Notes: generated by a model not told the origin, from the sequence alone. DNA of 64,000 nt from Bilabrum cf. latius (GCA_965178125.1 OZ237775.1:186001-250000), one strand, 5' to 3'; shown: positions 468 to 64,000, counted from the stretch's first letter. Made by a program: numbers and translations.

Positions 468-3400
468 GCGAGCTTAAGGTACGGGGGACGTTTGCGGCTG
501 AGACTGCGCTGTTCACAGCAGAAGACCCCAACTACAGCTTCAAAGCGCAGGATGTGAGCCGAGTCTCAACCAAATACATACTGATTGCAGCGACACAATC
601 GCCAATTTTTGCTATGTTGCCCGCTGTGGGTTGAACTGCTCGCAGGTATCGGCAGCCCATGGGTACTCTGAGGCATACGCTACAAAGCTGTGGAAAGCGG
701 CGTCTAGTAGTGATATCGGCCAAGCGTGGGAAGGCATAGTTGACACTTGGACAGCGGGTGTACTGCGCGGCATGGGCTTCCAGACAGCGGTGCAGCCTCG
801 CGGCGGGGTCGTGGCTCTGCTGCGTGGCCCAGGGGGTGGCGCAGACACGGACTCTATCGTACTGAGCGCATTCGAGCCTCGTGCGTGCTGGTCTCTTGGA
901 CGAGGCAGCAACAGCACGCACCACGGTGGGCCGGCTGCATCCCTCGTGGACTACGCGTGGAGCGGCAACGGCAGGACTGTCTGCTCGCTGCGGCATTAGT
1001 ACGGTTCAAGCACAGCCGCTGCTGGCGGCGATGCTTCTCACCCGCCAATCATCCGCTGCACGCAAAATACGGCGGGACTCTTCGTCCTGCTCGCCTCCCT
1101 GCAGCGCATTGCAGCGTCCCCATGGCGGGCCAAAGACGTTGTGGTGGCTATCCTGCCGCCCCCAGGTCACTCGTCACACCTCGCGCCGCGGTGCGGGGCT
1201 GCCGGCAGAGGCGTACGCGGCGAGAGCAGACGCGCGCATCTACCCCTCACTCGTCACACCGCTGACCCGTCGCTTCTCCTTCGTCGTCGCGCCCGACAGC
1301 TCGCCTCGCTGCTGTCGGTCTCCGCACCCCCCCCTGCTGCTGCTGCTGCTGCATCGCGCGGGGGCGATAACCGGAACAAGCCCGGGCCGCACCTGCCTCC
1401 CTCGATGAGGCTATCCGCGGCACCCACGTCCGGGGTGGCGCTCGCTTGGCCTTGGGGCGGCGCCGCGCGCGGCATGGCGGTGGTTCCGCAGGGCCTGGGC
1501 AGCGGATCGGCCTCGGCCGACATGGACCTGTTGCACAAGCTGGTGCAGGACATCGCCGAGCCTGCTGTGCCCAGGGCCAGGGCAGTCGGTGCGGGGAGGG
1601 GCGTGGGCGGTGGACTGGCGGGGGTGGGAGGTGGGGCTGGTCGCGGGAGTGATTTCGCCAAGAAGGGCAAGGGTAAGGGCAAGGGAGGCCGCGCGCGGAT
1701 TGGGTACGGGCGCGGGGCCACGCCTGCCCCGGGCACGGTGGTCGCTGGATCGGATCATGGATCGGATCATGGGTAGGGGGCTGCTCGGTCAATGATGACG
1801 AGTGCGGGCGCCCTTGTGCTGGACTGCGGCAGGTGCCAGGTGCCTGCAGGTCGAGCAGGCGAGAGAGGAGGGAAGGAGGGGTCGGGTGAAGACAGCGTCC
1901 AGAGACAGTGGAGGCAGGGCATGGTGGTGTCAGTCGGTGACCTGAGTACCGCAGGGGGTGGTCAAAGCGGGGATGGGACTGCGCTACAGGCTTGGATGGA
2001 GGGCGGGTGTATCCGGATGTGTGGCGGAAGAACAACAGCAGCAGCAGCAGCAGAGACAGGGACAGGGACAGGGGCTGGGACCGGGGCGGTGGGAGAGGGC
2101 GTAGAGGCGGGCTGGAATCAAACGGAGGTATTCTCCGATCTAGAGGCGGAGGCAGATCCACGCGCGTTGGCAAGCCCTCAGGAAGCAGCACATACTCGCA
2201 GCAGAGGTATCGGTCGAGAGCTAGAGCAACACGGAGAAGTCTCAATGACGACAACGACGACGACGACGACTGCACCCGGTGGACTGGCAGTGGGGCTCTG
2301 GGCTCTTGTATCCTCCCTTCGGCATGCGTGGCTAGGCGCCGCGCAATGGTCCGGGCTGGTTCCGCACGCGGCCAGCTGGCAGCTGCGGACCAGCGCCGAG
2401 GGTTTGCAGGCCAGTTGGGTGCATGGTGACCCGGGTCAGCTTGGCCACACATCGGCGGCTGCGTTCGCGTCAGGACGCATCCAGTGCCCCGTAGGTAGCG
2501 GGAGGCACCGCATGCCCTCCGTTTTGGATAATTGGGCTCCCGGGTTCGAGCCCCGTAGCGCCCCGCCCCTGGATCTCGATCGCATCGCCACGGTGCAGTG
2601 CGACCAATTCCGCAGAACAGCCGCGGAGGGTGCTCACCTGCACAGACAGGCCGACAGGGGCATGGGTCTTCTTCCTGCGGTGTCAAGGAATATCCCAGCA
2701 GGGAGGTGGGACGGGGGCAGCAGTGCCATGCACCCGCTCCTCGCCAGCGACGCTGCCGCCGCTGTGATCGCGCCCTTCCTCACGCATGGCGTGGATCTCG
2801 TCGGGATCGCCGCCGATGGTGTGACGAGTAGTATTACCCGCGGCGACCGGGCGGGCACCACAGGCAATCGGCTATCCCTGGAGCTGCGCTGCTCTCCCCT
2901 TGCGACCAACTCGACCGGAGCAGTTGCTCCGTGCTCGCCCATGGATGCCGATCTCGCGTACATCGCGGGGGAGTCCGGCAAGCAGCAGGTGCGGGCTGTG
3001 GGCCGCACCGTCGTGCAGTACTTTCGCATGCTGAACGGGCTGGAGGAGCGGCCCCACGCCGGGCAGCCCTTCTACCTACTGTCTGGGCCCAGTCGGTTCG
3101 TGGGTCAAAGCGAGGTGGTGCTGTTGGTGGCGGTGGCAGTGGTGCCTCTGCTGCTGGCGGCGCTGCTTCATGCAGGGCGTGCATCCAAGGGCAGGGCCGG
3201 GTAGGGGTGCGGCAATGGGCTGCACCTTGGGCGCGCCGTGTGTGTCGGTCTGCTGCCCCTGCTGCTTGTGGCGTGGTGCATGCATCGCATTGCGGTGCGG
3301 TACGTGCCCCAGGAACTTGGAGTTGCAACCGGGATGGCAGCGGGGCGACTGCATTCATCATCGTTGGTTGGGAGCGTCGCTGGCCCTGGCATGGGCGAGG

Positions 3401-6117
3401 GCGAGGGCGAGGGTGGTCTTCATATGTACGACCCTATCGGCGAGAATGACCACGATGGGGAGGAGCGCAAGGAGGAGGAAGAAGGAGCGAGGAGCGCGTT
3501 GTTTGTCTCCACTGCCACCCTGCCGTTCAGTGGAATCTCACCTGGCATCGCATGGACCGAGCATACAGCCAGCGCCAGCACCAGCACCGCGATGGATGGA
3601 GGTGCACCCGCAGCCATGGGGCCCGGCGTGCTGTCCCTCTTGGTGGAGACGGGGGGGGCCGCTGCAGCGGCTGGCCTGGCTTCGCTGCGAAGCGCGTCTG
3701 CCATGCTAGGCGAATTACTGCGAGTACTCGTGTCCGGCAGGGCGGTTGCAACCTCGAGAATGGGGATGGGCGCGGTGATGCGGCTGGCAGGGGCCGGGTG
3801 CGACCTCGGGTCCGGTGAGCCGGTTGCAACCCAGTTGCGACCGGCTGTCGCTGGCATGCTGGGCCGCGATTGGAGGCGGCTCTGCCGGCTCGCTAGCACA
3901 GCTGGTGTGACGAGCGTCGATTCCACCGGTGTGACGAGTGGGTGGCTTGCCCTGGTTGAGACGCTCTCGGCCCGGGCCATTCTGGCTCAGGATCCGCTGC
4001 TCCCGCCGGTTGCAACCGCGGGAGGTGCGCTTGTCGCGTGGGTGGCGTGGGCGGCGGATGGGGTGGCATGGCTCGCCGGGGGCGCGGACCCGGTGCATGC
4101 CCCTCGAAATGTATCGGTTGAGCTGCTGTTTGGCGCTAGCCTGGTGTCCTGCTCTGCCGTCTGCCTCCTGGTTGCAACCGCGGTGCTGCAGCCGGGGCTG
4201 GCGGTGGCGGCCGACCTGAGCTGGGCTTGGGTGGTGCAGTCCTCTGCGCGGAGCAGGGAGCTGAGGCTGTCGCGTGAGGCATTAGATCGGATCGATCGGA
4301 GCACATGGAAGGGAGGCGCGGGAGGGGACTAGAGCGGAGCACAGGCCCAGACCCCCCGTACGCTGCTCCGGCAGATCTTGTGGGAGATCATGCCCGACCC
4401 TCGGCTGGCCGACGTGCTCCTTCACCGCCGAGCAGCTGCTTTGATCCGATCCGTGGAGTCGGTTGCGTTCGCCAGAGACCGTTTGGGTGCCGTGGCAGGC
4501 GCGGATCACCGGCCGCTCATGGTCCCTCCCGGGGTGCGGCAAGCGGCGCGAGATGCACTGGACCGGGGTTTTGCTCCCCCCCGGCATGGCGCATAGGGTG
4601 CCAAGGACACGGCATCGTCCGAGACAATCGATGCAGCGAGCAAAACAGGGGGAAGGGATGACCCACACGGGTCTCAGACGGGTGCATCAGCCGCAACTCG
4701 CCGCAGGGATGCCGCGACAGCACCAGAGCCGGTCCATGAAGCAGTCCCACTCTCCGGCTAGGATGCACTGTATGACGAGGGCCGTGCCCTGGTAGAGGAG
4801 GGCATCGCTGAGGGGTTTGCGGGTGCGATCGACCCTGATACATTCGATGAGTGGAGGCTTGAGCTGCCATCGAGACTGGATCTCGGGAATGGGCTGGAGG
4901 ACGAGGAGGAGGAGGAGGTGGCGGGGCTGACCAACGCTGGTGGTGCTGGTAGAGTCGGCAAGGGCGGTGGGAAGCTTGTCGGGCAATGGGGTGTGACGAG
5001 TGCAGCGGGTGCCGTGGCTCTGGGCCTGGAAGAGCGTGAGCGGGCTGTGGGCGGGTGGGTGTGGAGTTTGCTGCATCTCGGGGCGGAGGAGGCACCTGCG
5101 AGATAGTGTGCTGGGCGAGACCAAGCGAGCGAAGAAGATGCGGAAGCAAAGGCGATCAAGGAGGGGCGAGACGGTGAGAGTGGATCACAGAAGGACTCCG
5201 GCTCGGACGGGGAGAGGCAAGGCAAAGGGCCCTGGAGCGGTCTGCGCTCGTCACATCTCACTGGGATGGCCAACTCCAGGGTGATGAGTGCACTGGCTCT
5301 CCCTCAGCCGATCGGAGCAGAAGCGGGGAATGCCTCCGCAGTGACGTCAGCGGACCTTGCGGCCTGGTCGCAAGCGGGCGCGATGCAGCGGATTCTCGGG
5401 AAGGCGCAGCCAGGGAACAAATCGAATGCAGGGAACAGTGGACGTGCAGGGGTCAGCGGAACCAGCGGAACGGCTGCACCGGCCTCCGTCACCGCGCTGT
5501 GGCAAGCGGCTGTGGTTCTGCTTTGTGCCCTCCTGGGGACCAACACTCTCCTGCACCTGCCGATCGGAGTCGTGTGGGTGCCCTGGATCGCACTCGTCAC
5601 AGCGGTAGGGACGCTGGCTGTGTACGGCGGCTGCGGCTGCCGCTGCTGCGGCTGCTGCCGACGACCGGGGCTTGGCCGGCAGGCTCACCACGGCCCGGGG
5701 ATCCACCGTGTGACGAGTGTGCTGCGTGTGCTTGCGGCAGGGCTCTGTGCATCCCCAGTGACCGCCGTGCTACTGGTGGGCGCGGCCACCGGGCTGCTCC
5801 ACGCCCTGGATGCTGCCGCTGGCAGCGGGTGCGGGGTCGGGGCGGCGGGGGACTCCGTGGTGCCTGCTGCCTCCCGAGAGTCCGCGCTTGCTCCGATCCT
5901 GTGCCTCGCTTCAAAGATGAGTGTCGGTGACGGCATGTGGAGCGGTGTGACGAGTGTGCTTGAGGGGATCGGTGCGCTCTCCCAGCGGGCCTCTAGTGCG
6001 GCATCGGGCGAATCGGGCGAGGAGGCCTTGCTGATGGCTCCGTGGAGGGTAGTCTGCTGGGGGCTCCTGCCTCTTCTAGTGGGAGCGGCGCAAGTTGTTC
6101 TGATTGCAGTTGTGTGA
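468..6117 (+). CDS. GPAA1: GPI transamidase subunit GPAA1/Gaa1-like, greatly expanded (~1,850 aa); 5'-most exon unresolved
   Basis: ORF pieces 631, 1141, 1792, 3238, 4378, 4918 and 5266 share one frame, separated only by TAG (997, 1774, 3202, 4330, 4594, 4759, 5104); ends TGA 6115-6117. Gaa1 motifs: 'GTFAAETAL' (cf. TYFSENAL), 'LLRGPGGGADTDSIVLSA', 'PWRAKDVVV', 'NMDLL'-like 'DMDLL', 'GRTVVQYFRMLNGLEERPHAGQPFYLL', then multiple TM segments. Inferred exon 468-553 and intron 554-645 (GTGAGC...CTCGCAG). Confidence 0.8.
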
Positions 6118-6609
6118 TTGTGACGAGCATCTCGGCTCGGAAGTGGGTTTGGGTGGGAAACAGGATCGGGCAGGTGTCAATCTAGACGAGATGAGCACCA
6201 GGTGCTGCTCTGCTTTCAAATGGCTCTCCTACACCCTTGATACCTGTAGCAGCCGTGCTTCTAGATTAATCGCACGGCTTAAGTTCCGAAATTTGCGCTA
6301 ATCAAGCAGAGTTCTGCTCGGATTACCCCTTTCAATGGGGGTAGGTTCTGGGGTGGATATTTCCGTGACTGGGCACGGCATGTGACGACGACAAGCTGGC
6401 CCCACGCACAAAAATTGGGAGATGCCAGCTCAAACCCTCAAATACTTCGTCGCAGGCAATTTAATAGCCCTTATAGTCAGAAGGGGGCTAAACACTTACA
6501 ATATTTCATTTCGAACGTTCGATCACTTGGTGTTGGTGACTTGTTCGGGACCCTGCGCTGCATACAGCCCGGGACTCGCCGATCCAGCAAACGATTGAGC
6601 TCCTAGTCA

Positions 6610-9600
6610 ATGGAGCGCGGGTTGGCACACGCCTTTATAGTTACAGCTGTTATTCTCTAGTTGAGTACATGCAGTCTAGCTAGCAACGCAAATTTATTGC
6701 GGCCGGTGCTGCAGCGCCTCTGGCTGTCTACTTCGCGAGCCTCCGCGTCCAGCATTTGGAAAACTGCTCGTGGCTGGAGTCAAGGACAATCAGCACTATT
6801 ACCATGCGGTGCTGATCCACCAGGGGGTGCCGATTCTACTGCAGTCCCACCAGTTTCGTGGCCTGGAATCCAGTGCGTGTCGGGCAGTGGCGGAAACTGG
6901 TCGCTCCACGCCATCGATCTGGAAGGGTTTTAGCTGGCCGGCAGCTTGCCAGATGATAGCAGCCTTTGGTTTTCGTTGGGAGATGCGAACGTTCGCATGA
7001 TTTCGATGCAGGATAGCCCAGACCTTACGGGATCCGTGCCAGCTGCGATTTGCTAGCTCGCGTCCAGTCCTCGCGTGCTCGCCTTGGCTCGAAACGGCTT
7101 GGAAGGGGCTCTGCCAGAGTGCCTGGGCCGGGACTTATCAAGCCTTGCTGTGCTAGATCTCTCAAGTAACCGCCTTACCGGGCCCGTTGCGCTGCTCGGT
7201 GCCATTGCGCCCATGGCAAACCTCAAGGTGCTGCGGCTGCAGGGCAACCTCATCAGGGGCCCGTTGTTCCCCGCTGCGACCAACACCCCGGCGCTGAGGC
7301 AGCTCCTCGCTCACGACAACTACCTGACGGGACCGGTCCCTCCCCTCCCGCCGAACCTGGAGGAACTTTCGCTGCACGGCAACTTGCTTGCGGGCCCCCT
7401 CCCCGCCCTGCCAGAGAGCCGGTAGGGCGGGGGTGCCGTCAGCCTGCAGGTTGCAACCGTGACAGCGGGCAACCGATTCGCGTGCGACGCTTGCTACGGC
7501 GCTGCGTCCCCCGAGGATTGTTCCCTGGCCAGCGAAGGTTCGCCCATCCCCGAGGGCTGGGCGCGGGCGGACCCATTCGCGGCAAGGTACTGCGGCGCCT
7601 CGGGAGCCTCTGACGTCACTGAAGAGGCGAAGCGGGATGCTGCGGCATCCACTGACCCGGCTAGCGTCGGTCTTGTTCCCTGGCGATCCGCACGAACGTT
7701 CGGTTCCAGCGCCACGTGGGGGGTGTCGGCGCTTGTGCTGCTTGGCGTGTGGCTGGTGGCTGGGGCCCTTCGGCTGTGGGCGTGCGGGTGGACCAGGCTG
7801 AGGCTGGGAAACAGCCTGGACACATTTTCGGCCCTGCTGGTGCTGGCGCAGGGCCTAGATGTCGGTGTGGGCACTCTGGGGTAGGGTGCATCGCGCGGTG
7901 GTGCGGGCGCTCCATCGGGGGCGAGAGCGGGCAGTGGCGGCGGCGGCGGCCGGGTCGTGTCGAACCCTTTGGGCGACGTGGCCGGCCGCAGGCACACTCT
8001 CAAGAAGCAGGCATCAGTGATCGTCAGGCATAGCGATAGTGCCCTTGGGCAGCTCGAGGCAGATGCTCTAGAGGGGGGTGCGGTGGAGCTCTCTGCCTCG
8101 AGGCGGAGGCTGTCCGTGTCAAGGGCGGTGGAGCTCGAGGAGGAGATCGAGTCGGCGGGGTGCATCGCACGGTGCTGCGTGCCCTGCCTCGCTCTGTCGC
8201 ACTTTGGAGGGTCATGCTGCTACAGAATCTCACCCGGGTGCCACTACATCGTGTGCTGCGGGTGCTGCACGGGTGCAGACGATCAGCGGAAATAGCAGCT
8301 GCAGGATCTGAGGAAGGGTAGGAGGCTTGACCTGCCCTCCCCCAGGTCATCACCGGGATCTAGCCCGGGCTCGAGTCCTGGATCCAGTCCTGATTTTGGG
8401 CCCGCTGTGGGGGGCTGGCCGGCTGGTGCACCGCTTGGCGCAACGCCGGTGCTGGACGGGCAGGGGCCGGGGCTGGGCAGGGCCAGTGCCAGTCCCGGTG
8501 CTGGTCATAGTGCCAGTGCCGGGGGTGGGGCCGGTGCTGTCGCTGCCCCTGTGGAGGGCAATGCGGATAACGACATCGACGACGATGACGACGACAAGAT
8601 CGGAGCGGAGGACGCGAGGCACCTCCCGCCCGCCTCCCAGCTGGCAGTGCCTAAGGAAGGCCCCAAGCAAGGCGCGAAGACAGTGGCCAGCAGGCTGACG
8701 CTGGCCCTGCAGCGTTCCTCGGACTCCGAGGCACAGCAGAGGCGCGAGACCTTGTCGCTGATGGGGCAGGGCAGGCACGCGCAGGAGCAGGCAGAGAGAA
8801 AGAGAGCGGAGAGGAGGCTTGAGAAGAGCAAACAGGACCTGGACGGACTGTCCGGAGTGCTGCTGCAGGCTTCAAGGGCCGGTGCAGTGGCCCTTTCGGC
8901 ACAAGATCCCGCAGCAGCGAGGATCGTCCTGCTGGAGCTCTTCGCGGTACTGACCATGGTGCTTGCGGCTCTCATGGTGTACCTCGTGTTCATGCCGGCA
9001 CTGTTCGGGCTGCAGTCTGCGGCGGGGTCGGAGGGGCCGTGGACCACGTTCCACCACTCCACCACAGTGGTGCAGGTCCCGACCAATCTCATCAATCGCT
9101 GGGGAGCGTGGGGCTACAACGCCAGCTAGGTTACCCTGCCGGAAGATGGCGGCTCAAGGTCGTACGGCCGCCCCCTTTTGAACGAGGCCGGGCCTGAGGA
9201 CGAGGATGCCTAGCTCGGATTCGGCGGCGAGTGGGTGATCTGGCAGGCTACGGTGGCGGTGACTGTGGGCCTGTGGCTGTTTTGCTACATTTTGTGCATG
9301 CAGGCCCATGCTACCAGGCAGGGAGTGCTTGCTGGGCTGAGTCGAGTCCGGTACATGGTGTCACTCGGTGACAAGGGTCCTGCCGGGAGGCTGGTGCTGA
9401 GCAGCTCTCTAGGGGAGGGGGACAGGGTGCATGCAGTCAGAGTACTCCGAGGACCGCCCTTCGTGGAGATTGGGGCACCGTTCGGCAGGAAGCACGCAAG
9501 AGGGGTGGTCAAAGTGGAAGAGGGGCTCAGGAGAGGCAGCGGGGGGTCAACTGAAGCCGACGCCAAGGGACCCCCACGGCGGGGGGTACCCCCGGGGAAG

Positions 9601-33560: not shown

Positions 33561-33593
<33 letters not shown>

Positions 33594-40754: not shown

Positions 40755-40834
40755 TTGTTCGGCTCCCCAGTGACGGATTACCGGAAGCAGTCGAGCAATT
40801 CGCCGCAATTCAAGTCTTCACCACAATTTGAAGC

Positions 40835-49721: not shown

Positions 49722-49968
49722 GCTCAGGGTGGACTTTCCGGCAATATCAGATTCGTCAATCAATCGAGAGAGAATTCCATTCGTTTTCCCTATCCCGGGT
49801 ATCTATTGCACTGGTAGGTAAGTTAATCATACAAACTGAACATTGCAGTCGATCGGTTTGAGCCTGGGTAACGTTCTGCACCTGGGACAGTTTCCTCTGG
49901 TATATTGCATTATAGCGTGCTGTTGACTTCGTTGCCGTTGCCCCGGATCCCTCTTTGAAGCACTAGCC

Positions 49969-50978: not shown

Positions 50979-51989
50979 AGTGGGCTCATGCTCGGGCTCG
51001 GGGTCGTGCTCGTGCTGCCACGGCCAAGGGAACGCGGCCTGGGTGAGTCAGGGGAGTGGAGGCAGAAGGGGGCCGTGCACATAAATGGGCAACATCGCGG
51101 GGCAGTGGGCCCTTCCACAGCAGATAAGGGGGTGGGGGAGAGGGCACGCATTGCATTCAAAGTTGGTGATTCTCCTGCTGTGCGTGACAGCACCCGGCTG
51201 CGTTGAGTTGCTGGGCTGGCAGTTGGTGAGCTGGCCTTACACTACCAACCCGAAGTAGCAGGTGCCGATACTCTTTGCGTGCCATGTCTGCCGCGGGTAC
51301 GCGTTGGGGTCGCGTTGCTGCCCGTAGACAATGAAGGGGTACTTCGTGCCAAATGTTGCGGTTTCAGCCGGACATGAAGGCACCAGCGGCAACCGCCGCG
51401 TGTGACTATTTTCGGGTCATGCGGTAGCGTTGCTCTTGCTTGGCTCAACGTTGTACGGCAAGTTGTAATCTTTCGCATGCCACATCGATCTTGCGAATCT
51501 CGAAACTAGATCTACTCGGAAGCTAGAAAGCAGGTCAGATCCTGGTCTCTGTGCAATTTTACAACCATTATCCTGTCGATTATTTGGCTACAATGAACAG
51601 CCCCTCCTACAGATGAACAGCCTTGCAAACGATTGTGGAGAGTTCTTAATAGACCTAGGGGCCTATTGCCCTTGTAGTACTAGTAGCGCGTATATTTGCG
51701 ACTGTGTGAGAAATCGGATTTTCGATCGCTTGCATGCAAAAGACTCTTTCAGCATTCTTCCTAGGAACAACCTTTATTTGTTTAGCTGGTTGAACCTGCA
51801 TTTACTATTTTACTCTTTAAATATCGCGGTAAGGATGTACTCTTCAATAATAGTTTGCATGAAAGGTAGTTTTACCATCTGTTTGTGTTTACCGTTCACC
51901 TCATTCTGTGGTATGTCGTGCATCTCGGCAAGATGTGTGGATTTTCCAATCAAAACAAGAATTTCGTAATAGTAAGACTTCGCAGGTCA

Positions 51990-53690: not shown

Positions 53691-54353
53691 ACATGATGCA
53701 GATCTACCGATGGGATCATGATGCAGATCCAGTCGAGGGCGAGCGGTGGTGGTGGGTTTCGGCTCGACGGGATGGCAGGGCAGAGCAGGCTCACAATAAT
53801 GCATTGGGCCACCGAGATGCTATAAAAGTGGAGGAAGGATGGCAAGAGCGCCTAGGATATCCGACTTCCCACTGCTTTTGTGTCTCGCTCCCTCCGAGGC
53901 GGTGACGACAATCGAGCAGCGCGTGGGGTAAACTGCATTCGAATGACGTGTCTATCCAAGACGTACTAGTTTTAAAGTCAGACTCTGCCTTATTAGTCCA
54001 GTTTTCGAAGGTCTTGTCCCCGGGCGACTGGTTCAACTGTGCTTTAGTAACGTGTGTATTGGGACTTCACCCGAAACCAGTATTGCAATAGCCAGTCGCC
54101 AATTCCGATTCGCAACGTGTGAGCTGTAAAAGTTGGTCAATTGATAAACTATGCTTGTGACTACTATGATATAATCCAGTTTGTTCCTAGCTGCACCCTC
54201 GAGTCTCCACCCAGTACGCGTATCCACTTTTGACATCTGCCTCGGTTTACCGTTCACCACATTCTCAAATGATTATGGCCGACATTCGGCTACTGTCAGC
54301 AAATTTTACAGTATAATTCCTTGTTATCTTACTCCCCTCAAACATGCAGGAAG

Positions 54354-56021
54354 ATGGCATCTTCAGGTGCTGCGCGTATCCCTGTCACAAAGTCTCCAAT
54401 CCACGGGCTTAGTGTTGCTGCCCTCAGGACGAAGATCCGCAGCAGGGACCCGCCCCCGCCTGGAGCAAGGGTGAATCAATTGAAGTGGCTAGCGACCGCA
54501 TACCAGTCGAGGTTTGTCGATGAATATAGGGTCATCATCGATGGATCTGACTTCTTCGTGTCGAGCGAGGATCTGCGGCACATGGCAGCCGCCCTCGGCA
54601 CCCGCACGGCCGGCTCCAAACACGACGTGATGGAGGGCATCCAGCAAGGAGTGGCAGATGGATTGCCGGCTGCACCCCGGCCCGACGCGCGCAGGCCGGG
54701 ACATGCCATGACCAAGTCTGCGATCTGGGGCATGAATCAGACCGAGCTGCGAGCTGGGCTGCATGCCAAAGTGCCCGGGCTGAATGCTAGGACTACGCAG
54801 GTGGCTGTGAAGTGGCTGTACGTGGGCTGCAAGTGCGAGCTTGTGGACGAGAACACCGTGAGGTACGGCCGTGACGAGTACGAGATGAGCTTGAGCGACT
54901 GGAAGGCGATGGCGAAGGCCTGGCAGGTAAAAGATTATGGTACCAAGTTCAAAGTAATGGTGCGGATCCGGGCTGCAATCGAGGAGATGAGGAGCCCGAC
55001 ATCACCTCCGGCTCCAGCCCCAGTGCTTCCCCCCGCCCCAGCCCCAGCCCCAGCCCCAGCCCCAGCCCCAGCCCCAGCCCCAGCCCCAGCCCCAGCCCCA
55101 GCCCCAGCCCCAGCCCCAGCCCCAGCCCCAGCCCCAGCACAACGCAGAGGGTTTACGGGCCCAAGGAAGCAAAAAGCTCTGAAGCCGATCGAACTTCCTA
55201 TCGCAGAGTGCGTATTCTGGACCATGAAAACCCCAGAGCTGAGGGAGATGCTCCGGGGCAAGGCGATCGGCTTATCCAAGGCCAACCTGCAGGCCTTGCG
55301 CTGGATGGCTGTGTGCTACTCTGGGAGTTCCGTGAACGACGACGGTACGGCGATCGTGGGCGGTCACACGTACAAGCTCACTCGCAAGGATCTGACTGAC
55401 ATGGCAACGGCCATAAAAGTTCCGCGCCCTGGCAGTGGAAGCAAGGCGGACATTGTCGGGATGATCCGCGAGAAGCTCAGGCACGATGCACTCAGGGGCG
55501 GGGCAAGGCCTATGGTCGGCGAAGGTACCCAGGCCAAGGGGGGCGCAGCGACCCAATCCAGCCCCGGACATGCCAAGCCCGAGACCCAGTCCAAGCCCGA
55601 GACCCAGACCAAGCTCGAGACCCAGTCCATGCCCAAGACGAAAGGCCGAAGTACTCCTTCCAAGGGCCGCAGCACTCCCCCAAAAATTCCGGAGGTGCCT
55701 CGCATTTCAATGTGTCCCGAGTTGCAGCTTACCAAGACGCAGCTACTTGGACTGGTGTCTCTATGCATGCCAACAAAGATAGTCGAATCGCTGGCCAAGC
55801 AACCTCTCACGGTAATGCGGTGGCGCGCAATTGGCTACGTTGGTGCGCTCAGTAGAGCGGGCATCCGAGTTCGGGGCCGCCGCTACGAGATGGCGGCCTC
55901 AGACTGGCGAAACATGGCGAAAGCATTCGGTGCAGCGGAGCATCCGGTCACAAAGAGCGTGGTTGATGGGGTATTAGATCACGTGGCTCGTATTAAACGG
56001 TTCGGCGAATCAACCTTGTGA
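54354..56021 (+). CDS. Uncharacterised protein with four SAP/HeH-like repeat modules, paralog B
   Basis: The first ~670 bp are near-identical to paralog A; modules 3-4 are diverged ('LTRKDLTDMATAIKVPRPGSGSKADIVGMI'); (PA)n linker; ends TGA. Confidence 0.7.
   Translation: MASSGAARIPVTKSPIHGLSVAALRTKIRSRDPPPPGARVNQLKWLATAYQSRFVDEYRVIIDGSDFFVSSEDLRHMAAALGTRTAGSKHDVMEGIQQGVADGLPAAPRPDARRPGHAMTKSAIWGMNQTELRAGLHAKVPGLNARTTQVAVKWLYVGCKCELVDENTVRYGRDEYEMSLSDWKAMAKAWQVKDYGTKFKVMVRIRAAIEEMRSPTSPPAPAPVLPPAPAPAPAPAPAPAPAPAPAPAPAPAPAPAPAPAPAQRRGFTGPRKQKALKPIELPIAECVFWTMKTPELREMLRGKAIGLSKANLQALRWMAVCYSGSSVNDDGTAIVGGHTYKLTRKDLTDMATAIKVPRPGSGSKADIVGMIREKLRHDALRGGARPMVGEGTQAKGGAATQSSPGHAKPETQSKPETQTKLETQSMPKTKGRSTPSKGRSTPPKIPEVPRISMCPELQLTKTQLLGLVSLCMPTKIVESLAKQPLTVMRWRAIGYVGALSRAGIRVRGRRYEMAASDWRNMAKAFGAAEHPVTKSVVDGVLDHVARIKRFGESTL
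55036..55138 (+). repeat. (GCCCCA)n microsatellite encoding (PA)n, about 17 units
   Basis: Perfect hexamer run inside paralog B. Confidence 0.95.
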
Positions 56022-56183: not shown

Positions 56184-58730
56184 TCAAAGAGCCATGGCCG
56201 TGGCATTGGATGCGACCTCCACGGCGCCCCTCGCTGCCACGTCCAGCAGAGAGGGCGAGTACACGGCGAAGGAGAAGAGGCCAGCGGACATGGAGCCCAC
56301 TACGATAAGGGTGATGACCCACCCGAAGGCAACCCTGGCCACCATCCACCAGTTGATCCCGTTGCAGGGGTTCTCCACGAGCCCCACCCCGATGGTGGCG
56401 CCCACCTGGCAGTGGGTCGTGCTAAGGGGCAGCTCCAACCGGGACCCGATGATGATGACAAGTGCGGCTCCGAGTTCCACGAGGAACCCCCTGGAGGGGG
56501 TCAAAGGCACGAGCTCCACGCCGATCGCCTGGATGATGCGCCAGCCCAGGGTGGCCAAACCCACAACGATTCCGAATCCTCCGATCAGAAGCACCCAGGC
56601 GTCCACGGGCGAGCTGGAGGCCACGATCCCCGTCGAGTAGATGGCCACGATGGCGGCGAAAGGTCCCATGGCGTTGGCGCTGTCGTTGGCTCCGTGTGCG
56701 AACGAGTCAAAGGCAGCAGTGAACACCTGCAGGTACACGAAGGTCTGCTCGGTCTTCTTGTCGAACCGCTCGAGGTTCTTGTGCATCTGGGCCACTGTTC
56801 CCTCGGGGTCGTCCTTGAGGCTGCTGTGCACGTCGGCGGAGACACCCTGCGTCAGGACGGTCATAGCCGTGCTGGATGCATTTCGCTCCTGGTCCTGCTG
56901 CTCGCCGGCTGGCCCGACCTTGCTCGTGGTGGTGGCGCCCGTTGGCTTCACGTCGCTTGCCCCGGCTGCGTTCATATCATAGTCATTCGTGGGTGCGCTG
57001 GCCTTGGACTCTGATCCCGGGGCGGGGGCCTCTGTGTCAGCCACCTTGCCGGCGTTGATCTTGCCCCCAGAGGTGGGCAGCACTGCAGTGCTGCGGTTGC
57101 TCACCGCCCCCAGCTCAATGTCGCCCTCTTCTTCACCATCAATGGGCACGCTGCAGGGGCTGCCAGGTGCCTCCATGTCCATGCCCTCCTTGTGTTCCTC
57201 AGAGACCGGACCGTCATCGAGCTCTGCGGACCCTCCGCCGCACCCGCACCAGACGGGCAGTACCTTGGTTCCATCGAGGATGTTCTGCTTCAGCCAGGGA
57301 ACAATGGTGAACTGCAGGGCTACACCCACTACGAGTCCCGATCCGATGGAGCTGACGATGCCGATCCACAGGGGCGTGTCATCCAGCTCGAGCGCGGGCG
57401 TGCCCTTGTACACGATGAAGAAGACGTTGATGGCGACAGTGATGGCGATGATGATGGGCATGAAGGTGAAGGCGCGCTCAAAGGAAAACGCAGACCGCAG
57501 AATGGTGTACCTCAGGGTCCAGTAGGCCCCCGCGGCGAGCACGCCCGAGAGAATGGGAGACAGGAACCAGCTGGCCACCACCATGCCCACCTTTTGCCAG
57601 TTCACGGCGTCCGAGCCACCCGCTGCCAGCGCCATGCCGATGACACCGCCGATGGTAGAGTGCGTGGTTGATACAGGCATCTTGAAGTATGTCGCAATCA
57701 TGAGCCAGACGCCCACGGCGAACAGGACAGAAAACATGCCAATCATGAGGACATCCGGGCGGTCGACGAAGGCGTCCGTGTCGACGATTCCCTTGCGGAT
57801 GGTCTTAGTCACATGAGCTCCTGCGAGCACAATTAAATGACGCAAATATATCGTATCTGTTATGTGCCCGGTGCACTCTTAGCTTATTGTGCAGCAGGGC
57901 CTGGCGCCCCCAAAGACTGCCCAAGCTTCTCCTCGTGCAAAACAATACGCTACGCAATCCACATCATTCCAAGAGACAAATAGAGCATGACTTTGTACAA
58001 ATCGCACCACGATGTGTCCTTTAGCTGGCAGCAAGTGCTGTGAGCCACAGCTTGGGCCGCGCACTGCACCAGCGAGCACTTGCTTCGTCCCACAACCATG
58101 TGCAAACGCAGGCGCAAAATGCAAAGCAGAACAATAAGACCACTGCATATTGCTTCAATATTATCCCACAGAGCAGCGCAAAAACGAACCTTTTGGTCGG
58201 AGGAAGCCCGAGATTCGATGATGCGCTGCCGCACCTTGGGGAGCATCGCCACGAGCAGCTTGCAGTCGGCGGCTCAGTGCCGACTGGACTCACCCATGAG
58301 AAAGGCACCGGCGAACTCAAAAATGCCGGCGATAATCACGGCCTAAAGAAGAGTGACCGACTTAGCTCCGACAGAGCTGCCAAAGCTGTTGGCGGCATCG
58401 TTTGCGCCTGCGAGGGGAAGGCTCGGGGGTGAGGCGAGGACAGCGCGGGTCACAGTCATCGAGCATTCTGGCATGCCGCTGGTCACATTGGCGATTTTCC
58501 AGGGCAATTCAAGCGTACATTCCGATGCAATGGGTACACTTAATAGTAAATGGTTGTGCACGGTAACCTGCGTGCGCCGTCTCCTTGCTTTCGTGTCAAG
58601 ATGCGGTCAATGTGACCTGATGGCAGCATGCACGCCTCTCACCGATGCCGAATGCTGCGAAGAAAGCAAGAAGTCCGCCGATTCCAACAATCCATTCTAA
58701 TGAAGTTGGGTCTGCGCTCAGGACGTCCAT
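56184..58730 (-). CDS. PiT/SLC20 (PHO4-family) sodium-phosphate symporter, 612 aa
   Basis: Exons 58730-58643, 58407-58294 and 57820-56184 (1,839 nt, in frame). Signatures 'GIGANDAANSFGSSVG', 'MPVSTTHSTIGG', 'FAHGANDSANAMGP', 'LPLSTTHCQVG'. One in-frame TAG at 58343-58345. Ends TGA. Confidence 0.95.
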
Positions 58731-59251: not shown

Positions 59252-60527
59252 TCAGCCGAGCTCGTCCTCGGCCGTGGCGGTAGCATCCTCGGTCCCCGCC
59301 TCGATCTCCCCATCCGCCGCCCCGCTGAGGCCCTTTCGCACCAGGAGCAGCAGCCTGGTCCTCCAAGGGCTCAGCTTGGAGATCCGATCGTACTCGGCTA
59401 GCGCATCCACGAACCCCTGCGCGTTGCCCTTCTCCACCGCCTCCACCAGGTCGGCAAAGAGCCTGCCCTCTCGGCTCTCGGCGAACGTGTAGTCCAGGTC
59501 TCCGAATCGATCTAGGGCCTGCTTGGCAGCCACCACGTCGTTAAGAGCCAAGTAGCATATCCCCGCATCAAGGAGGTGTTCCTTGGCCTGGAACTTGAGA
59601 AGGGAGTTGTCCGCCCTCGCTGCTGCCACTGCCTCGTATGCCTCTGCCGACTCCTGGTACCTGCCGGCATTCGCGCCCAACTCTGCCCACTTGAGCTTGC
59701 ACTGGTTGGCGCTGCTCTCCGACCTGTCCCCCTCAAAGTACCCCATCGCCTTCTCGAAGTGGGACATGGCCTCCTCCCAGTTCTCCTCCTTCTCCAGTGC
59801 CTGCGCGAGCTGCTGGTGCATCTGGGCGGCCTGACGGAACTTGCCGTTGGACACCAATCGGGGGATGCACTGTGTCTCCAACACGGCCCCCGCCTTCTTG
59901 GGGTCCACGAACTTGAACATGTCCGCGGCGTTCTTGTACATGGCGCCAGCCGAGACGTCGTCCGAGAGGTTCAGGTACATCTGCGCCGCCTGGGAGTAGG
60001 CCTCACCCGCCTTGCCGTAGGCGCGCGCAGCTTTATACTGGTGCCCTGCCTGCGTGTAGGAATCGCTGGCTTCCGTGTACTTTTCCCTGCGGTGCCAGCA
60101 GCAGAGGCGAACAAGTTCCACAAGCAAATGCCACAGCTTCGAAGCATGCGCAACTACAGCGCATCGCGTGCATACGCAAACTAATTGAGAAAAATTTATA
60201 GTCTTACACAGAGCTAAACATAACGAATCGGTCTCTTGCAGAATTCCCCTGCGCTTGGATAGATGGACGGATTCGCAGCACGGCATAGAGCAGCGACGAT
60301 GCTAAACACGCAACGCGGTGATCAGCAAGGTTCTTATCATATTATACATGCCGGTACTGGTTCGTAACTTCGCGGGACTTCCAAGCGCGCATCCAGCAGA
60401 TAGCAAGCATGGTCGAACGGTCCTGAGACCCTCCAACACTTTCCCTCACTTCTTGCATCAGAGAGTCCCCCTTTGCCTCGAGCGGACTCCCTGTTCCACC
60501 TGATGGTGCACCTTTCACTCCAGCCAT
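59252..60527 (-). CDS. NAPA: Alpha-soluble NSF attachment protein (alpha-SNAP/Sec17), 317 aa
   Basis: Exons 60527-60450, 60248-60208 and 60086-59252 (954 nt, in frame); 'GKFRQAAQMHQQLA', 'SSANQCKLK', 'NSLLKFQAKEHLLDAGICYL', 'FAESREGRL', 'YDRISKLSPWRTRLLL'; ends TGA. Confidence 0.95.
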
Positions 60528-60637
60528 ATCAACGTGGTATGAGAAAATGGGCCGGAACCCTGCTGCAACTTGCTTTGGAATTCAATGCAGTGCACTTTTG
60601 AGAAAAATCTGTAATAATCGTGGACCCCGCAAACCCA

Positions 60638-61979
60638 TCACCGCCCAGCGCCTGCAGCAGCCCCCCCTTTGCTGGCAGCCTTCGCGTCTCTATCCTGGGC
60701 CTATCTTCTGTTCTTGTGCCTGTCGCTCGTCATCTTGAGCGCGGTGCTGCCGGCGGCCTCCTGCAGCCCTTGCAGCGATTTCGCCGCCCCGTACCGCAGC
60801 GCGTGAAACTGCTCCACCGACATGCTGAACGTGTGCAGCGCGCCCTCGGCGGTTGCAACTTCGGCGATCACCCTCGGCTTCATCACGCGGGAGGTGGCGC
60901 TGCTGGCGATGTCCACGTCAAGCCTCCAGCGGAACCGGGCCAGCGTGTCGAGCGTGGACGCGGCGCCGCTTGGCCCGGCCAGTGCCCTCTCCAGCGCTTT
61001 TCGTCGCTTGTTGCAGGCCGATGCCACAGCGGCAGCATAGGCCTTCGGGAACCTGCTCGCTTCCAAGTCGGACTGCACCTTCGAGTACTGCGTGTGACGA
61101 GTGCGCGGCGCGGCCGATGAAGGGACGGGGTGAGCATGAGGGGGCGAGCACGTGTGAGTGAGGGGGCGAGCACGTGTGAGTGAGGGGGCGAGCACGTGTG
61201 AGTGAGGGGGCACGGCAAGCGAGCAATCGGCAATAGCAGAGGATTACCAGTGCATGCCAACATGAAAATCTCCCATGCAAGTCCTAAGCGATTTGATTGA
61301 ATGCCCCTGCTTGCTTGTGCGCGCGGCAACTTGAAGGCCATTCTTTCTTTCTGTCCTCACCAGAGTGTGATCCCGAGTGGCCCTGCGGATGAGCTCGGCT
61401 GTCGCTGCCAGTGCGATCGCTCGCACCCCGCTGGACGAGCGGGTGTCTGGCGCGACCATATCTGATGACTCTGAAGCGGCTGTGGTGGCGCGAGCCAGCT
61501 CGCCCGCCGGGGCACTTGCTCCGACACTCGGTGCTCCGCTCGATCCATCGCCAGCGCCAGAGGCAGCTGCACTACTGCCGCCGCCAGTGCCAGAGAGCGA
61601 CGGCTCAACAAGACCGTCCTCCAAATGAACGTCTTGCGGAAGAGCAACAGCATCCAGAGGTACTCCCGCTTCCAGTGTGTCGCACGTCTCTTTCACGATA
61701 TCCGCTGCTGTCGAGCCGGCCTTGATCGCACGGAAGATTGCACCTGGTGCAGCGGATACTAAAGCAGAAGCAGGAGCAAAGAATGACTCTGCCGCTGCAG
61801 TTTTGGCCAACTTGGGCACTCCTGATTTTTCCTTCCCTTTCTTTCCCTGCGAAAGTAGATCGGAGTGGCACTTGCAGCAATGGAGGGTCCGGTATCAATA
61901 TGCGAAACAATGGCTCACTTTACCACCTTTGCAAACGCCTGTCGGATGAAGTGCACATAAAACTTACTTTGGCTGCCAT
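60638..61979 (-). CDS. COMMD5: COMM-domain protein, most like COMMD5 (Commander complex)
   Basis: Inferred exons 61979-61968, 61846-61361 and 61087-60638 (948 nt). COMM domain 'FRWRLDVDIASSATSRVMKP...EGALHTFSMSVEQFHALRYGAAK'. TAG 60701 then TGA 60638. Confidence 0.75.
61137..61211. repeat. 22-bp intronic tandem repeat, about 3.4 copies
   Basis: TGAGGGGGCGAGCACGTGTGAG x3 plus a partial copy, inside COMMD5 intron 2. Confidence 0.9.
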
Positions 61980-62118: not shown

Positions 62119-64000
62119 ATGCGCTCCTCTGTGGGTGTACTGGTTTCTCTGTCATGCCTCTTGGCTGTGTAGGCTGTGGACAGGAGCAAGTTCAAGACTT
62201 GTAAAGATGCCGGATTCTGCCGCCGCCACCGTGATGTGGAAGTGGAGCCTGCTGTGAGACAGTTCTCGGAGCAATTTATCGAATTCGTCAAATTTTGGCT
62301 TTAATTATAGACTGACAATGAACTCGCCAGGGCAGCAGTGCCCTTAGTCGTCATGGACAGCTTCGGTAGTGGTGTTGCGAGTAGCCGGGACACGTGGTAG
62401 CGCACGCTGCGCATAATCTGAACAGCGCTGCTCGGATCGGCTTTATCGTTCGCACCCCTACCTATGTAACACTCCCCTCGAGCATTTCATCGCAGTGGCG
62501 CATCGCGGACGGCGAGCTGGATGTCCGGCCGGAGCAGGCCCGCGCCACTGCTCGCCTCGTCGGCGGGCCTCCGGGAGCCCCGCCTCTGTCGCTGCTGATG
62601 CGCTTCCTGGAATCGGGAGCAGTTCGTACCAAAATTGTGGAGGACGACGGCCGGGAGCCCCGCTGGGAGAATCATGACGTCGTGCTCGAGGCAGCCGCGG
62701 GCTCCAAGGCCGCTGGCGTGAAGCTTGCGACCAACAGTGACCCCAGCGTGGGGGCGGCCGCGGGGACGGGCCAGCGCCTCCCCTCTGAGGGGCACTCGTA
62801 CGTCACGTTCAAGGGAAGGGACGGCCAGGCAAGGCTGGTGATGGTGCGGCACAACCCCTTCCGCGTCGATGTCTTTATGGGCGGCAAGCACCACGCCAGC
62901 GTCAACGGCAGGGGGCATTTCTACCTCGAGCACAGGAGAGAGCGGGATGCGGCTGCGGCAGCCGCTGCAGCCGCCGCCAATGCCGCGGCGCAGCAGGGAG
63001 GCAGCGGCCAGCCGGGCGGTCGCAAGATCCTAGACTGGGGCGAGGATGGCAAGCCCATCTACGCGGACGCCGAGGAGGGCGGGGACAACGCGGTTGCAAC
63101 CTCCTCGGGGAACAGCAACGAGGCACCCGAAAGCGGCAGCGATGCGGCCCCTCCCGCCGTGGCAGAAGAGGGCGACGCCTACTGGGAAGAGTCCTTCAAG
63201 GAACACAGAGACACCAAGCCACACGGGCCCATGAGCGTGGGCGTGGACGTGGCCTTCCCGGGGAGGACCCATCTGTACGGCATCCCGGAGCACGCTGACA
63301 GCTTCGACCTGCGGGGAACCCGAGGCGAAGGTTCGGCGGGTCCCCTTGCCTCCCAGGCCGGCCAGCAGCCCCACACGGAGCCGTACAGGCTGTACAATCT
63401 GGACGTGTTCGAGTACGAGCTCGACAACCCAATGGCACTGTACGGGTCCATTCCGTTCATGGTGGCGCACGGGCCCGGGCACTCAACGGCTATGTTCTGG
63501 CACAACCCCACGGAGACCTTCATCGATATCGAGAAGAACGGGGCCGCGGGAGCTGCGGGCACCTCTGGCCGCCCGGGGGCGGTTCGGGTGGCAGGCAGCT
63601 CCACACACTGGTTGAGCGAGTCGGGCGTGTTCGACCTGACCATCTACACGGCCGGGGAGCCAAAGGCAGTGGTGTCGCACTTCACGGAGATGGTGGGGGC
63701 GCAGGAACTCCCTGCCAAGTTTGCGCTCGGGTACCACCAGTGCCGATGGAACTACAGGGACGAGCCCGACGTCTTCCAAGTGGACGCCAAGTTCGAGGAG
63801 CACGATTTCCCCTACGACGTGCTGTGGCTCGACATCGAACACACGGACGGGAAGCGGTACTTTACCTGGGACAAGGCGATGTTCCCCAACCCGGTCGCGA
63901 TGCAGGAGAAGCTGGCGGCCCGCGGTCGCAAGATGGTGACCATCGTGGACCCCCACATCAAGATCGACACGGGCTACCCCGTGTACCAGGACGCCAAGGA
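62119..64000 (+). CDS. GANAB: Glucosidase II alpha subunit (GH31), 3'-truncated by the window edge
   Basis: Signal peptide 'MRSSVGVLVSLSCLLAV(TAG)A' then the canonical 'VDRSKFKTC...FCRR'; intron 62254-62495; 'LYGIPEHA', 'EPYRLYNLDVFEY', 'GYHQCRWNY', 'DVLWLDIEHTDGKRYFTWD', 'KMVTIVDPHIK'. Confidence 0.95.

What the first reader, a model, noticed from the sequence alone, without database searches (positions are those of the whole stretch)
468..64000. Non-standard nuclear genetic code: UAG is a sense codon (Gln) while UAA and UGA remain stops
Seen: about 75 in-frame TAGs (hand count) in 15 of 19 genes. Reading through them restores single, domain-complete proteins, and I found no in-frame TAA or TGA. 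The 18 complete genes end in TGA (17) or TAA (1). Known: UAA and UAG nearly always share a meaning in nuclear codes; UAG-only reassignment is reported in only a few protists (e.g. the fornicate Iotanema spirale, a rhizarian, a few ciliates). Inference: this GC-rich, intron-containing genome does not look like a ciliate and in style recalls Cafeteria-like heterotrophic stramenopiles, though I cannot establish taxonomy. It may be an independent, undescribed UAG-to-Gln code, which would require a tRNA-Gln(CUA) and an eRF1 that ignores UAG.
Basis: partly seen in the sequence, partly recalled or inferred. Interest (0 to 1): 0.97.

Follow-up and report, generated by a model that had tools for sequence, protein, structure and literature searches.

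The report
UAG-to-glutamine code in Cafeteria-like flagellate
This stretch of a GC-rich protist genome, whose nearest named relative is the marine flagellate Cafeteria, reads the stop codon TAG as glutamine while keeping TGA and TAA as stops, a rare genetic-code change that I could not find reported for this branch of life.

Summary
Reading TAG as sense raises the longest ORF from 1052 to 3586 codons; reading TAA as sense adds nothing. In 18 ORF segments the coding frame holds 87 TAG, 0 TAA and 0 TGA. The two other frames hold 236 TAG, 104 TAA and 625 TGA. Sixteen segments end in TGA and one, the HECT ligase, in TAA.

Contigs from two other studies carry GT..AG-spliced forms of window genes and still show TAG: 27 of 35 sites in one run, with no differing letters. 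This rules out editing, splicing-out and assembly error.

A sister organism about 90% identical has Gln at 6 of 8 of our TAG sites. A more distant metagenome relative also has in-frame TAGs, and 4 of 10 aligned pairs there are Gln. So TAG most likely means Gln.

A pantothenate-kinase tree and the HECT hits place the organism in a clade with Cafeteria, a bicosoecid stramenopile. Ten literature searches found no nuclear UAG reassignment in stramenopiles.

The tRNA-Gln(CUA) and eRF1 could not be examined because no genome is held. This is a known code type in an apparently new lineage.

The parts
502..6117 (+). ORF of 1871 codons with 7 in-frame TAG, ending in TGA. Poorly conserved membrane protein with a weak Gaa1-like match.
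6283..11989 (+). LRR/transmembrane protein gene. Frame a covers 6283-~11089 (11 TAG) and continues in frame b (10973-11989) after a poly-G run at ~11104-11122. Ends in TGA. A homologue in metagenome locus L001 has 8 TAGs of its own.
12648..23408 (+). HECT ubiquitin-ligase ORF of 3586 codons with 16 in-frame TAG, 3 of them inside the HECT domain. Ends TAA-TTG-TGA. One 11,124-nt contig of run X5 ends at 23444 and, if colinear, spans the whole ORF.
23612..27355 (-). Ser/Ala/Lys-rich ORF with no Pfam match. 13 TAG lie in the exon up to 27253. GT..AG introns at 27254-27335 and 27430-27516. The last sense codon is TAG, directly before the TGA stop.
28954..32577 (-). TSP1/EGF-like surface protein ORF of 1207 codons with 5 TAG, ending in TGA. 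A homologue lies beside PanK in locus L002.
32825..34666 (+). Type II pantothenate kinase (Fumble). No TAG in this 613-codon ORF; ends in TGA. Used for the tree and to fetch relatives.
34722..38921 (+). Pectate-lyase-like (RHGA/epimerase) ORF of 1399 codons with 6 TAG, ending in TGA.
39016..40754 (+). GH28 polygalacturonase-like gene in two exons (39016-39810, 40101-40754). The 290-nt GT..AG intron is removed in contigs of X5 and X7. One exonic TAG at 39391.
40832..44278 (+). ORF of 1148 codons with 3 TAG, ending in TGA. No Pfam match.
44637..47788 (-). Repeat-rich gene read as two overlapping frames (44637-47081 with 4 TAG; 46040-47788 with 2 TAG). Exact structure not resolved.
48423..49826 (-). 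ORF of 467 codons with 3 TAG, ending in TGA. No Pfam match.
49927..50754 (+). Nnf1 (kinetochore) domain ORF with 3 TAG, ending in TGA.
51597..56021 (+). Two tandem paralogues (51870-53690 and 54273-56021). Neither has a TAG after the first ATG; both end in TGA.
56184..57878 (-). PHO4 phosphate transporter. No TAG; ends in TGA.
59252..61243 (-). Alpha-SNAP gene (59252-60445; no TAG in the domain part) and a COMM-domain ORF (60638-61243; 1 TAG).
62322..63998 (+). GH31 alpha-glucosidase, cut by the window end. No TAG after the first ATG.

Best explanation
The window is nuclear DNA of a heterotrophic stramenopile whose nearest named relative is Cafeteria (Bicosoecida). In this organism UAG is an ordinary sense codon for glutamine. 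It makes up about 11% of Gln codons in these ORFs. UGA is the main stop and UAA a minor stop. The code is the same as NCBI table 15 and as that of Iotanema spirale.

Shown here: TAG is tolerated in frame at near-background frequency, whereas TAA and TGA are absent from the coding frame. The TAGs persist in spliced transcript-like contigs. Close relatives have Gln codons at those sites, and they have in-frame stop codons of their own at other sites.

Inferred, not shown: a tRNA-Gln with anticodon CUA, one mutation away from tRNA-Gln(CUG), reads UAG but cannot pair with UAA. An eRF1 with weakened recognition of G at the third stop position no longer terminates at UAG.
For: (1) ORF lengths: 1052 aa at most under the standard code, against 3586, 1871, 1814, 1399, 1247, 1207 and 1148 with TAG as sense. 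There is no gain from TAA as sense. Markov simulations reach 679 aa at most in 100 runs.

(2) Frame-specific counts in 18 ORF segments: in frame 87 TAG, 0 TAA, 0 TGA; off frame 122+114 TAG, 42+62 TAA, 330+295 TGA.

(3) Pfam domains span TAGs or lie downstream of them: HECT with 3 TAG inside the domain, GH28, Nnf1, the pectate-lyase-like domain and TSP1.

(4) Independent data: four studies hold the stretch. Contigs of X5 and X7 join 39810>40101 and 27429>27517 (GT..AG), while the X1 contigs keep these introns. Listed X5 pieces cover 27 of 35 TAG sites in 21000-40900, X7 pieces 10 of 35 and X6 pieces 23 of 35. The only differing letters lie at 40187-40210, in X1.

(5) Meaning: four fragments from one 10,294-nt contig of a sister organism (86-91% identical) show Q,Q,Q,E,Q,L,Q,Q at 8 of our 16 HECT TAG sites. 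One fragment ends at a ninth site, and 7 sites are not covered. Against metagenome loci L001/L002 there are 10 true-frame pairs: Q 4, E 2, and S, D, W, A once each. Summed BLOSUM62: Q 51, E 30, K 6.

(6) UAA is a stop. CAA is 23.5% of CAR codons, so about 21-27 in-frame TAA would be expected if UAA were also Gln; 0 are seen. The HECT ORF ends at TAA 34 residues after the Cys of its C-terminal HTCF motif, followed by TTG TGA.

(7) The trait is shared in the lineage. In L001 one ORF grows from 403 to 1428 aa and the PanK ORF from 217 to 365 aa with TAG as sense. L003 (GC 71%, Cafeteria-like) is intact under the standard code.

(8) Placement: in the PanK tree the window, L001 and L002 group at SH-aLRT 99, inside an 8-row clade with the Cafeteria cluster at 100. 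The best named HECT hit is Cafeteria roenbergensis.
Against: No tRNA gene was found in the window or in L001-L003, and no genome is held. The decoding tRNA and eRF1 are therefore unseen.

There is no peptide evidence.

No run is on record as RNA, and the tool labels X5 'RNA? (probably DNA)'. My reading that X5 and X7 hold transcript-derived contigs rests on their spliced joints alone. Contigs also drop rare variants, so partial editing is not excluded.

Two of 8 sister sites (E, L) and 6 of 10 L001/L002 pairs are not Gln. At distant homologues the TAG columns are variable and uninformative.

Zero in-frame TAA and TGA is partly by construction, since the ORFs are delimited by them.

Whether UAG ever terminates is untested. 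One gene ends ...TAG TGA, and the L001 PanK tail has two TAGs.

The taxonomy rests on one gene tree plus best hits.
Confidence: 0.9

Rival explanations
1. UAG has a dual, context-dependent meaning: Gln inside genes, and a stop (or part of a tandem stop) near some transcript ends, as in Condylostoma-type ambiguous codes. This would add to the best explanation, not replace it.
For: Gene 23612-27355(-) ends ...CCA TAG TGA. The PanK tail in L001 has two TAGs shortly after the conserved end. 3' UTRs look short: the contig ends seen are about 36-100 nt after the stops.
Against: In every ORF whose Pfam match reaches its C-terminal end (HECT, PanK, PHO4, SNAP, GH28), the ORF ends at TGA or TAA. No case needs UAG as a stop.
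Confidence: 0.1
2. TAG is a sense codon for another amino acid, with Glu or Leu the likeliest alternatives.
For: The sister has E at one of our TAG sites and L at another. L001 TAGs face E in the window twice, once in a conserved PanK column. In distant HECT homologues E is common in two of the TAG columns.
Against: Gln appears at 6 of 8 sister sites and at 10 of 18 pairs overall. Summed BLOSUM62 is Q 51 against E 30, and L is not among the top five. E is nearly absent from the HECT column at residue 3478, which is dominated by V and I.
Confidence: 0.05
3. Both UAA and UAG are reassigned to Gln (code 6 type), and UAA is rare only because the genome is GC-rich.
For: UAA and UAG nearly always change together (PMC11687900 discussion passage; PMC5304391 background passages). 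TAA is rare overall: 181+188 occurrences in the window.
Against: There are 0 in-frame TAA against 87 TAG, although CAA is 23.5% of CAR codons; about 21-27 TAA would be expected. Adding TAA as sense extends no gene meaningfully. The HECT ORF ends at TAA 34 residues after its C-terminal HTCF motif, and the X5 contig ends about 36 nt later.
Confidence: 0.02
4. The TAGs are not translated as such: they are edited or spliced out of the mRNA, or they are errors or pseudogene lesions in one assembly.
For: None specific. No run is on record as RNA.
Against: The lesions are all TAG, never TAA or TGA. The same letters appear in contigs of three further studies. Spliced contigs keep the TAGs, and only four differing letters were listed, none at a TAG. 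Relatives have in-frame stop codons of their own at other positions. Frame is kept across all TAGs.
Confidence: 0.01

Closest known systems
Iotanema spirale (Fornicata) nuclear code: UAG = Gln, UAA and UGA stops (Panek et al. 2017, PMC5304391; passages read)
   Same: Only UAG is reassigned, and to Gln. UAA is retained as a stop. The predicted mechanism is the same: tRNA-Gln(CUA) plus an altered eRF1.
   Different: An unrelated lineage (an anaerobic metamonad against an aerobic stramenopile). In Iotanema UAA is described as the dominant stop, whereas here UGA dominates (16 of 17 stops). Here genomic DNA with introns is available.
Ciliates with UAG-only reassignment to Gln: Protocruzia tuzeti and two phyllopharyngean lineages (McGowan et al. 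2024, PMC11687900; discussion passages read). NCBI table 15 is recalled, not from a call.
   Same: The same codon table.
   Different: Ciliates are alveolates with macronuclear genomes and a long history of code changes. This genome is 62% GC, has spliceosomal introns of 82-290 nt, and groups with Cafeteria.
Rhizarian exLh (UAG = Leu) and Scotinosphaera (UAG = Ser), as listed in PMC11687900
   Same: UAG is decoupled from UAA in a nuclear code outside the ciliates.
   Different: A different amino acid. Here Leu appears at 1 of 18 aligned pairs and Ser at 1 of 18.
Cafeteria roenbergensis / C. burkhardae (Bicosoecida), the nearest named relative
   Same: A GC-rich genome with introns. The PanK and HECT orthologues are the closest named hits.
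   Different: For Cafeteria the genome paper mentions a non-standard code only for the mitochondrion (PMC6972860, passages read). The Cafeteria-like locus L003 is intact under the standard code. Identity to the window is only about 32-36% in the HECT C-terminal part and about 46% over the PanK alignment.

Membership tests
UAG = Gln nuclear code with UAA and UGA as stops (table 15 / Iotanema type) | In-frame UAG within genuine, expressed coding regions | tested here: met
   87 in-frame TAG in 18 ORF segments. Domains span them. Spliced contigs keep them.
UAG = Gln nuclear code with UAA and UGA as stops (table 15 / Iotanema type) | UAG positions correspond to Gln in homologues | tested here: met
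   6 of 8 sites are Q in a ~90%-identical sister. 4 of 10 pairs are Q with L001/L002. Q has the best summed score. Distant homologues are uninformative.
UAG = Gln nuclear code with UAA and UGA as stops (table 15 / Iotanema type) | UAA and UGA are not used as sense codons and do terminate genes | tested here: met
   0 in-frame TAA or TGA against 104 and 625 off frame. Stops are 16 TGA and 1 TAA. No ORF gain with TAA as sense. The HECT ORF ends at TAA 34 residues after its C-terminal HTCF motif.
UAG = Gln nuclear code with UAA and UGA as stops (table 15 / Iotanema type) | A cognate tRNA-Gln with anticodon CUA | not testable with these tools
   No tRNA in the window or in L001-L003. No whole genome is held.
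UAG = Gln nuclear code with UAA and UGA as stops (table 15 / Iotanema type) | eRF1 N-domain changes that weaken UAG recognition | not testable with these tools
UAG = Gln nuclear code with UAA and UGA as stops (table 15 / Iotanema type) | Peptides with Gln at UAG | not testable with these tools
   Needs proteomics.
UAR = Gln code (table 6 type) | In-frame UAA alongside UAG | tested here: not met
   0 TAA against 87 TAG in frame; about 21-27 expected from CAA usage.
Ambiguous stop/sense codes (Condylostoma or Blastocrithidia type) | The reassigned codon also terminates near transcript ends | tested here: inconclusive
   No ORF with a domain match reaching its end needs a UAG stop. However, one ORF ends TAG-TGA, and the L001 PanK tail holds TAGs.
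Bicosoecida / Cafeteria-related stramenopiles | Phylogenetic placement with named bicosoecids | tested here: met
   Single-gene PanK tree: an 8-row clade with the Cafeteria cluster, SH-aLRT 100 (37 of the 120 listed hits, chosen by me, plus the window, L001 and L002). The best named HECT hit is Cafeteria. No 18S or multigene test was possible, so order-level membership is not established.

The most novel reading that the evidence does not exclude
This is the first nuclear genetic-code change in stramenopiles. An independent UAG-to-Gln reassignment is shared by a whole, so far unnamed clade (the window organism, a ~90% sister, and at least one more distant environmental relative). That clade branches beside standard-code Cafeteria in a GC-rich, UGA-terminating genome. 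This would give a matched pair, changed code against standard code, for dating the change and dissecting how UAG was decoupled from UAA.
Probability: 0.6. Interest if true: 0.85.

Novelty: new member of a known kind. Interest (0 to 1): 0.78.

Why it matters
Nuclear codes in which UAG and UAA differ in meaning are few. Those listed in PMC11687900 are Iotanema, a rhizarian, Scotinosphaera and a few ciliate lineages.

A further, independent case in a free-living, GC-rich stramenopile with a close standard-code relative (Cafeteria) would allow several tests:
- Whether UAG capture follows loss of UAG stops in a UGA-dominated genome.
- Which eRF1 changes recur across independent reassignments.
- How a tRNA-Gln(CUA) arises.

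There is also a practical consequence. Standard-code gene callers cut this lineage's proteins into pieces. The sister HECT gene is on record as four separate 'proteins'. The organism turns up in runs labelled with four different organisms, so its mis-translated fragments probably already sit in other organisms' assemblies and in protein databases.

Tried and rejected
No genome-wide Codetta-like scan, tRNA survey or eRF1 check was possible.
- ARAGORN and Rfam found nothing in the window or in L001-L003.
- The first HECT search was wasted by the length limits and returned only a Pythium protein at 25% identity.
- TAG columns in 150 distant HECT homologues, and in Cafeteria and other named homologues, were variable and did not decide the residue. 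For two Cafeteria cluster members, P0280 and P0278, the script printed no alignment.
- The GH28 TAG faces Ala in PDB homologues at a variable site.
- No RNA holder was listed among the sequencing runs.
- Parts of 21000-40900 without listed cover in X5, X6 or X7 are not interpreted.
- Scans of genome contigs with the PanK alignment, and of viral contigs with the HECT C-terminus, found no relative.
- TAG density is lower in Pfam-matched genes (8 in 3208 codons) than in long, poorly conserved ORFs (57 in 11510), but not significantly so (p = 0.07).
- Ten literature searches found no report of a nuclear UAG reassignment in stramenopiles, bicosoecids, Opalozoa, Bigyra or placidids. Subscription-only papers and supplementary files were not searchable, so a report could exist there.
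- Pyrrolysine- or selenocysteine-like recoding was considered and dropped. The sites align with Gln codons in relatives and number 87 in 64 kb.
Full report
WHAT IS IN THE WINDOW. The window is 62% GC (57-67% in 4-kb steps). Its genes are eukaryotic in kind: a giant HECT ubiquitin ligase, LRR and TSP1/EGF surface proteins, type II pantothenate kinase (PanK), a GH28 gene, a pectate-lyase-like gene, Nnf1, a PHO4 transporter, alpha-SNAP, a COMM-domain protein and a GH31 glucosidase. It holds no tRNA gene and no Rfam family.

THE OBSERVATION. Under the standard code the longest stop-to-stop ORF is 1052 aa. With TAG read as sense, seven ORFs exceed 1100 aa: 3586, 1871, 1814, 1399, 1247, 1207 and 1148. 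TAA as sense gives no gain. TGA as sense gives many mid-sized ORFs, as expected when the commonest stop triplet of GC-rich DNA is removed, but none longer than 1052 aa. In 100 first-order Markov simulations the longest TAG-sense ORF averaged 439 aa and never exceeded 679 aa.

In 18 ORF segments the coding frame holds 87 TAG, 0 TAA and 0 TGA. The +1 and +2 frames hold 122 and 114 TAG, 42 and 62 TAA, and 330 and 295 TGA. TAG is therefore tolerated in frame at close to its background rate, while the other two stops are excluded. Seventy TAGs lie after the first ATG, in 13 of 18 segments. Nnf1 and the COMM ORF add 3 and 1.

A few counted TAGs are not coding. Sites 27320 and 40033 lie in introns. 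Sites 11335 and 11671 lie in a wrong-frame tail after a poly-G run. Stops are TGA in 16 segments and TAA in one, and one segment is cut by the window end.

NOT AN ARTEFACT, AND NOT EDITED OR SPLICED OUT. Runs from four studies, labelled with four different coded organisms, hold the stretch. I laid contigs of four runs on 21000-40900.
- The X1 contigs run straight through three short GT..AG introns.
- X5 and X7 contigs join 39810>40101 (290 nt) and 27429>27517 (87 nt). X7 also joins 27253>27336 (82 nt).
- X5 and X7 therefore hold spliced, transcript-derived sequence, although no run is on record as RNA and the tool guesses X5 to be DNA.
- The listed X5 pieces cover 27 of the 35 in-frame TAG sites of that stretch, X7 pieces 10 of 35 and X6 pieces 23 of 35.
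- The only differing letters reported are four at 40187-40210, in X1.
- One X5 contig of 11,124 nt ends at 23444. If colinear, it starts near 12340 and so spans the whole 3586-codon HECT ORF with its 16 TAGs.
- Contigs can hide minority variants, so partial editing is not excluded.

WHICH AMINO ACID. Distant homologues were of no help. The five TAG columns in the HECT C-terminal part are variable in 150 hits, with Q only about twofold enriched. The GH28 TAG faces Ala in PDB relatives.

Close relatives were decisive. A search for shorter proteins found four fragments (801, 673, 489 and 478 aa) from one 10,294-nt contig. They are 86-91% identical to successive parts of the window's HECT protein, which means a sister organism's gene was cut by a standard-code gene caller. 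Of our 16 TAG sites:
- 8 fall inside these fragments, and the sister has Q,Q,Q,E,Q,L,Q,Q there;
- at a ninth site (residue 2437) a sister fragment ends;
- 7 are not covered.

Sister fragments also end opposite our K1060 (AAG) and E3062 (GAA). The sister thus has in-frame stop-like codons of its own.

A metagenome scan with a PanK alignment gave three loci.
- L001 (GC 60%) has a 1428-codon ORF only if TAG is sense (403 codons otherwise). It has 8 TAGs and is the homologue of the window's LRR/transmembrane gene. Its PanK ORF grows from 217 to 365 codons.
- L002 also has in-frame TAGs in PanK, and it keeps the window's PanK/TSP1-gene neighbourhood.
- L003 (GC 71%) is intact under the standard code.

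In true coding frames the window/L001-L002 alignments give 10 TAG-to-residue pairs: Q 4, E 2, and S, D, W, A once each. Off-frame alignments pair TAG with arbitrary residues. Over all 18 pairs the summed BLOSUM62 score is Q 51, E 30 and K 6. For the window organism Gln is well supported. For the L001 organism it is likely but thinner: its own TAGs face Q 3, E 2, S 1 and A 1.

UAA AND UGA. CAA is 23.5% of CAR codons in these ORFs (558 CAG, 171 CAA). If UAA were also Gln, about 21-27 in-frame TAA would accompany the 87 TAG, and none is seen. This zero is partly by construction. However, reading TAA through extends no gene at its 3' end by more than two codons. It lengthens only the 5' side of the HECT ORF, into what is probably leader sequence. 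The HECT ORF ends ...ATG GCA TAA TTG TGA, 34 residues after the Cys of the HTCF motif. That this Cys is the catalytic one, and that HECT proteins usually end about that far after it, is recalled knowledge. The X5 contig ends about 36 nt later.

WHO IT IS. The nearest named sequences for both PanK and HECT are from Cafeteria roenbergensis / C. burkhardae. In a PanK tree of 40 rows and 381 columns (37 of the 120 listed hits chosen by me, plus the window, L001 and L002), the window, L001 and L002 group at SH-aLRT 99. They sit inside an 8-row clade with the Cafeteria cluster at 100, apart from oomycetes, ochrophytes, plants and animals. This is one gene, and no 18S was available. 'Cafeteria-related stramenopile' is supported, but the order is not fixed.

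For Cafeteria, the genome paper reports about 70% GC and mentions a non-standard code only for the mitochondrion (PMC6972860, passages read).

MECHANISM. Shown: UAG is decoded as a sense codon, most likely Gln, and UGA and UAA stop. Inferred from established knowledge (PMC5304391, passages read): only an anticodon CUA can read UAG without reading UAA, so a tRNA-Gln(CUA), one mutation from tRNA-Gln(CUG), is expected. An eRF1 that no longer recognises UAG is also expected. Neither could be looked for. Whether UAG ever terminates is open: one gene ends TAG-TGA.

COMPARISON AND NOVELTY. The code table itself is known. UAG-only reassignment to Gln is listed for Iotanema spirale, Protocruzia tuzeti and two phyllopharyngean ciliate lineages. 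UAG = Leu is listed for a rhizarian and UAG = Ser for Scotinosphaera (PMC11687900, discussion passages).

None of my ten full-text searches found a nuclear UAG reassignment in stramenopiles, bicosoecids, Bigyra, Opalozoa or placidids. Subscription journals and supplements were not searchable. I therefore rate this a new member of a known kind. It is probably an independent origin, shared by at least three related organisms, next to a standard-code relative.

TOOLS NOT AVAILABLE. These were search of earlier findings (closed), the look-up of encoding contigs (closed, not called), paper supplements (closed, not called) and a whole genome (none held).

Noticed in passing
window 11104-11122: A run of about 11 G sits exactly where the LRR/transmembrane gene changes reading frame, from the 6283 frame to the 10973 frame. 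The L001 homologue reads straight through. This is probably a homopolymer indel in the assembly, or else a real frameshift.
   Followed up: partly
window 23406-23414 and 23612-23617: Tandem ends: the HECT ORF stops TAA-TTG-TGA. The convergent neighbour ends with a TAG codon directly before its TGA stop. The intergenic spacer between them is AT-rich and only about 200 nt long.
   Followed up: partly
window 51870-53690 and 54273-56021: Two tandem paralogues with near-identical N-terminal halves and four internal repeats of a domain with no Pfam match above cut-off (only a sub-threshold SAP_new25 hit). Neither has a TAG after its first ATG.
   Followed up: no
window 44637-47788 (- strand): A long Pro/Ser/Thr repeat (PTPSNS-like units) is open in two overlapping frames (QQPHAQ-like in the other). 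The true frame and gene structure are unresolved.
   Followed up: no
window 40141-40240: Run X1 holds a second contig with 4-6 differing letters over 100 nt of the GH28 second exon. This is a paralogue, an allele or a strain variant. An X5 contig runs on into unrelated AT-rich letters at 40242.
   Followed up: no
L001 1328-5614 (-) and L002 1-1167 (-): Gene order differs among relatives. In L001, PanK lies next to the homologue of window gene 6283-11989. In L002, as in the window, PanK lies head to head with the TSP1/EGF gene homologue.
   Followed up: partly
whole window (runs X1-X8): The same DNA turns up in runs of four studies labelled with four different coded organisms. This fits a small heterotrophic flagellate living in other organisms' cultures or samples. 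A Cafeteria PanK is likewise on record under a Symbiodinium name.
   Followed up: no
window 32825-34666, 56184-57878, 59252-60091, 62598-63998: The four best-conserved genes (PanK, PHO4, SNAP, GH31; 1923 codons together) hold no TAG at all. The wider contrast between Pfam-matched and poorly conserved ORFs is not significant (p = 0.07).
   Followed up: yes
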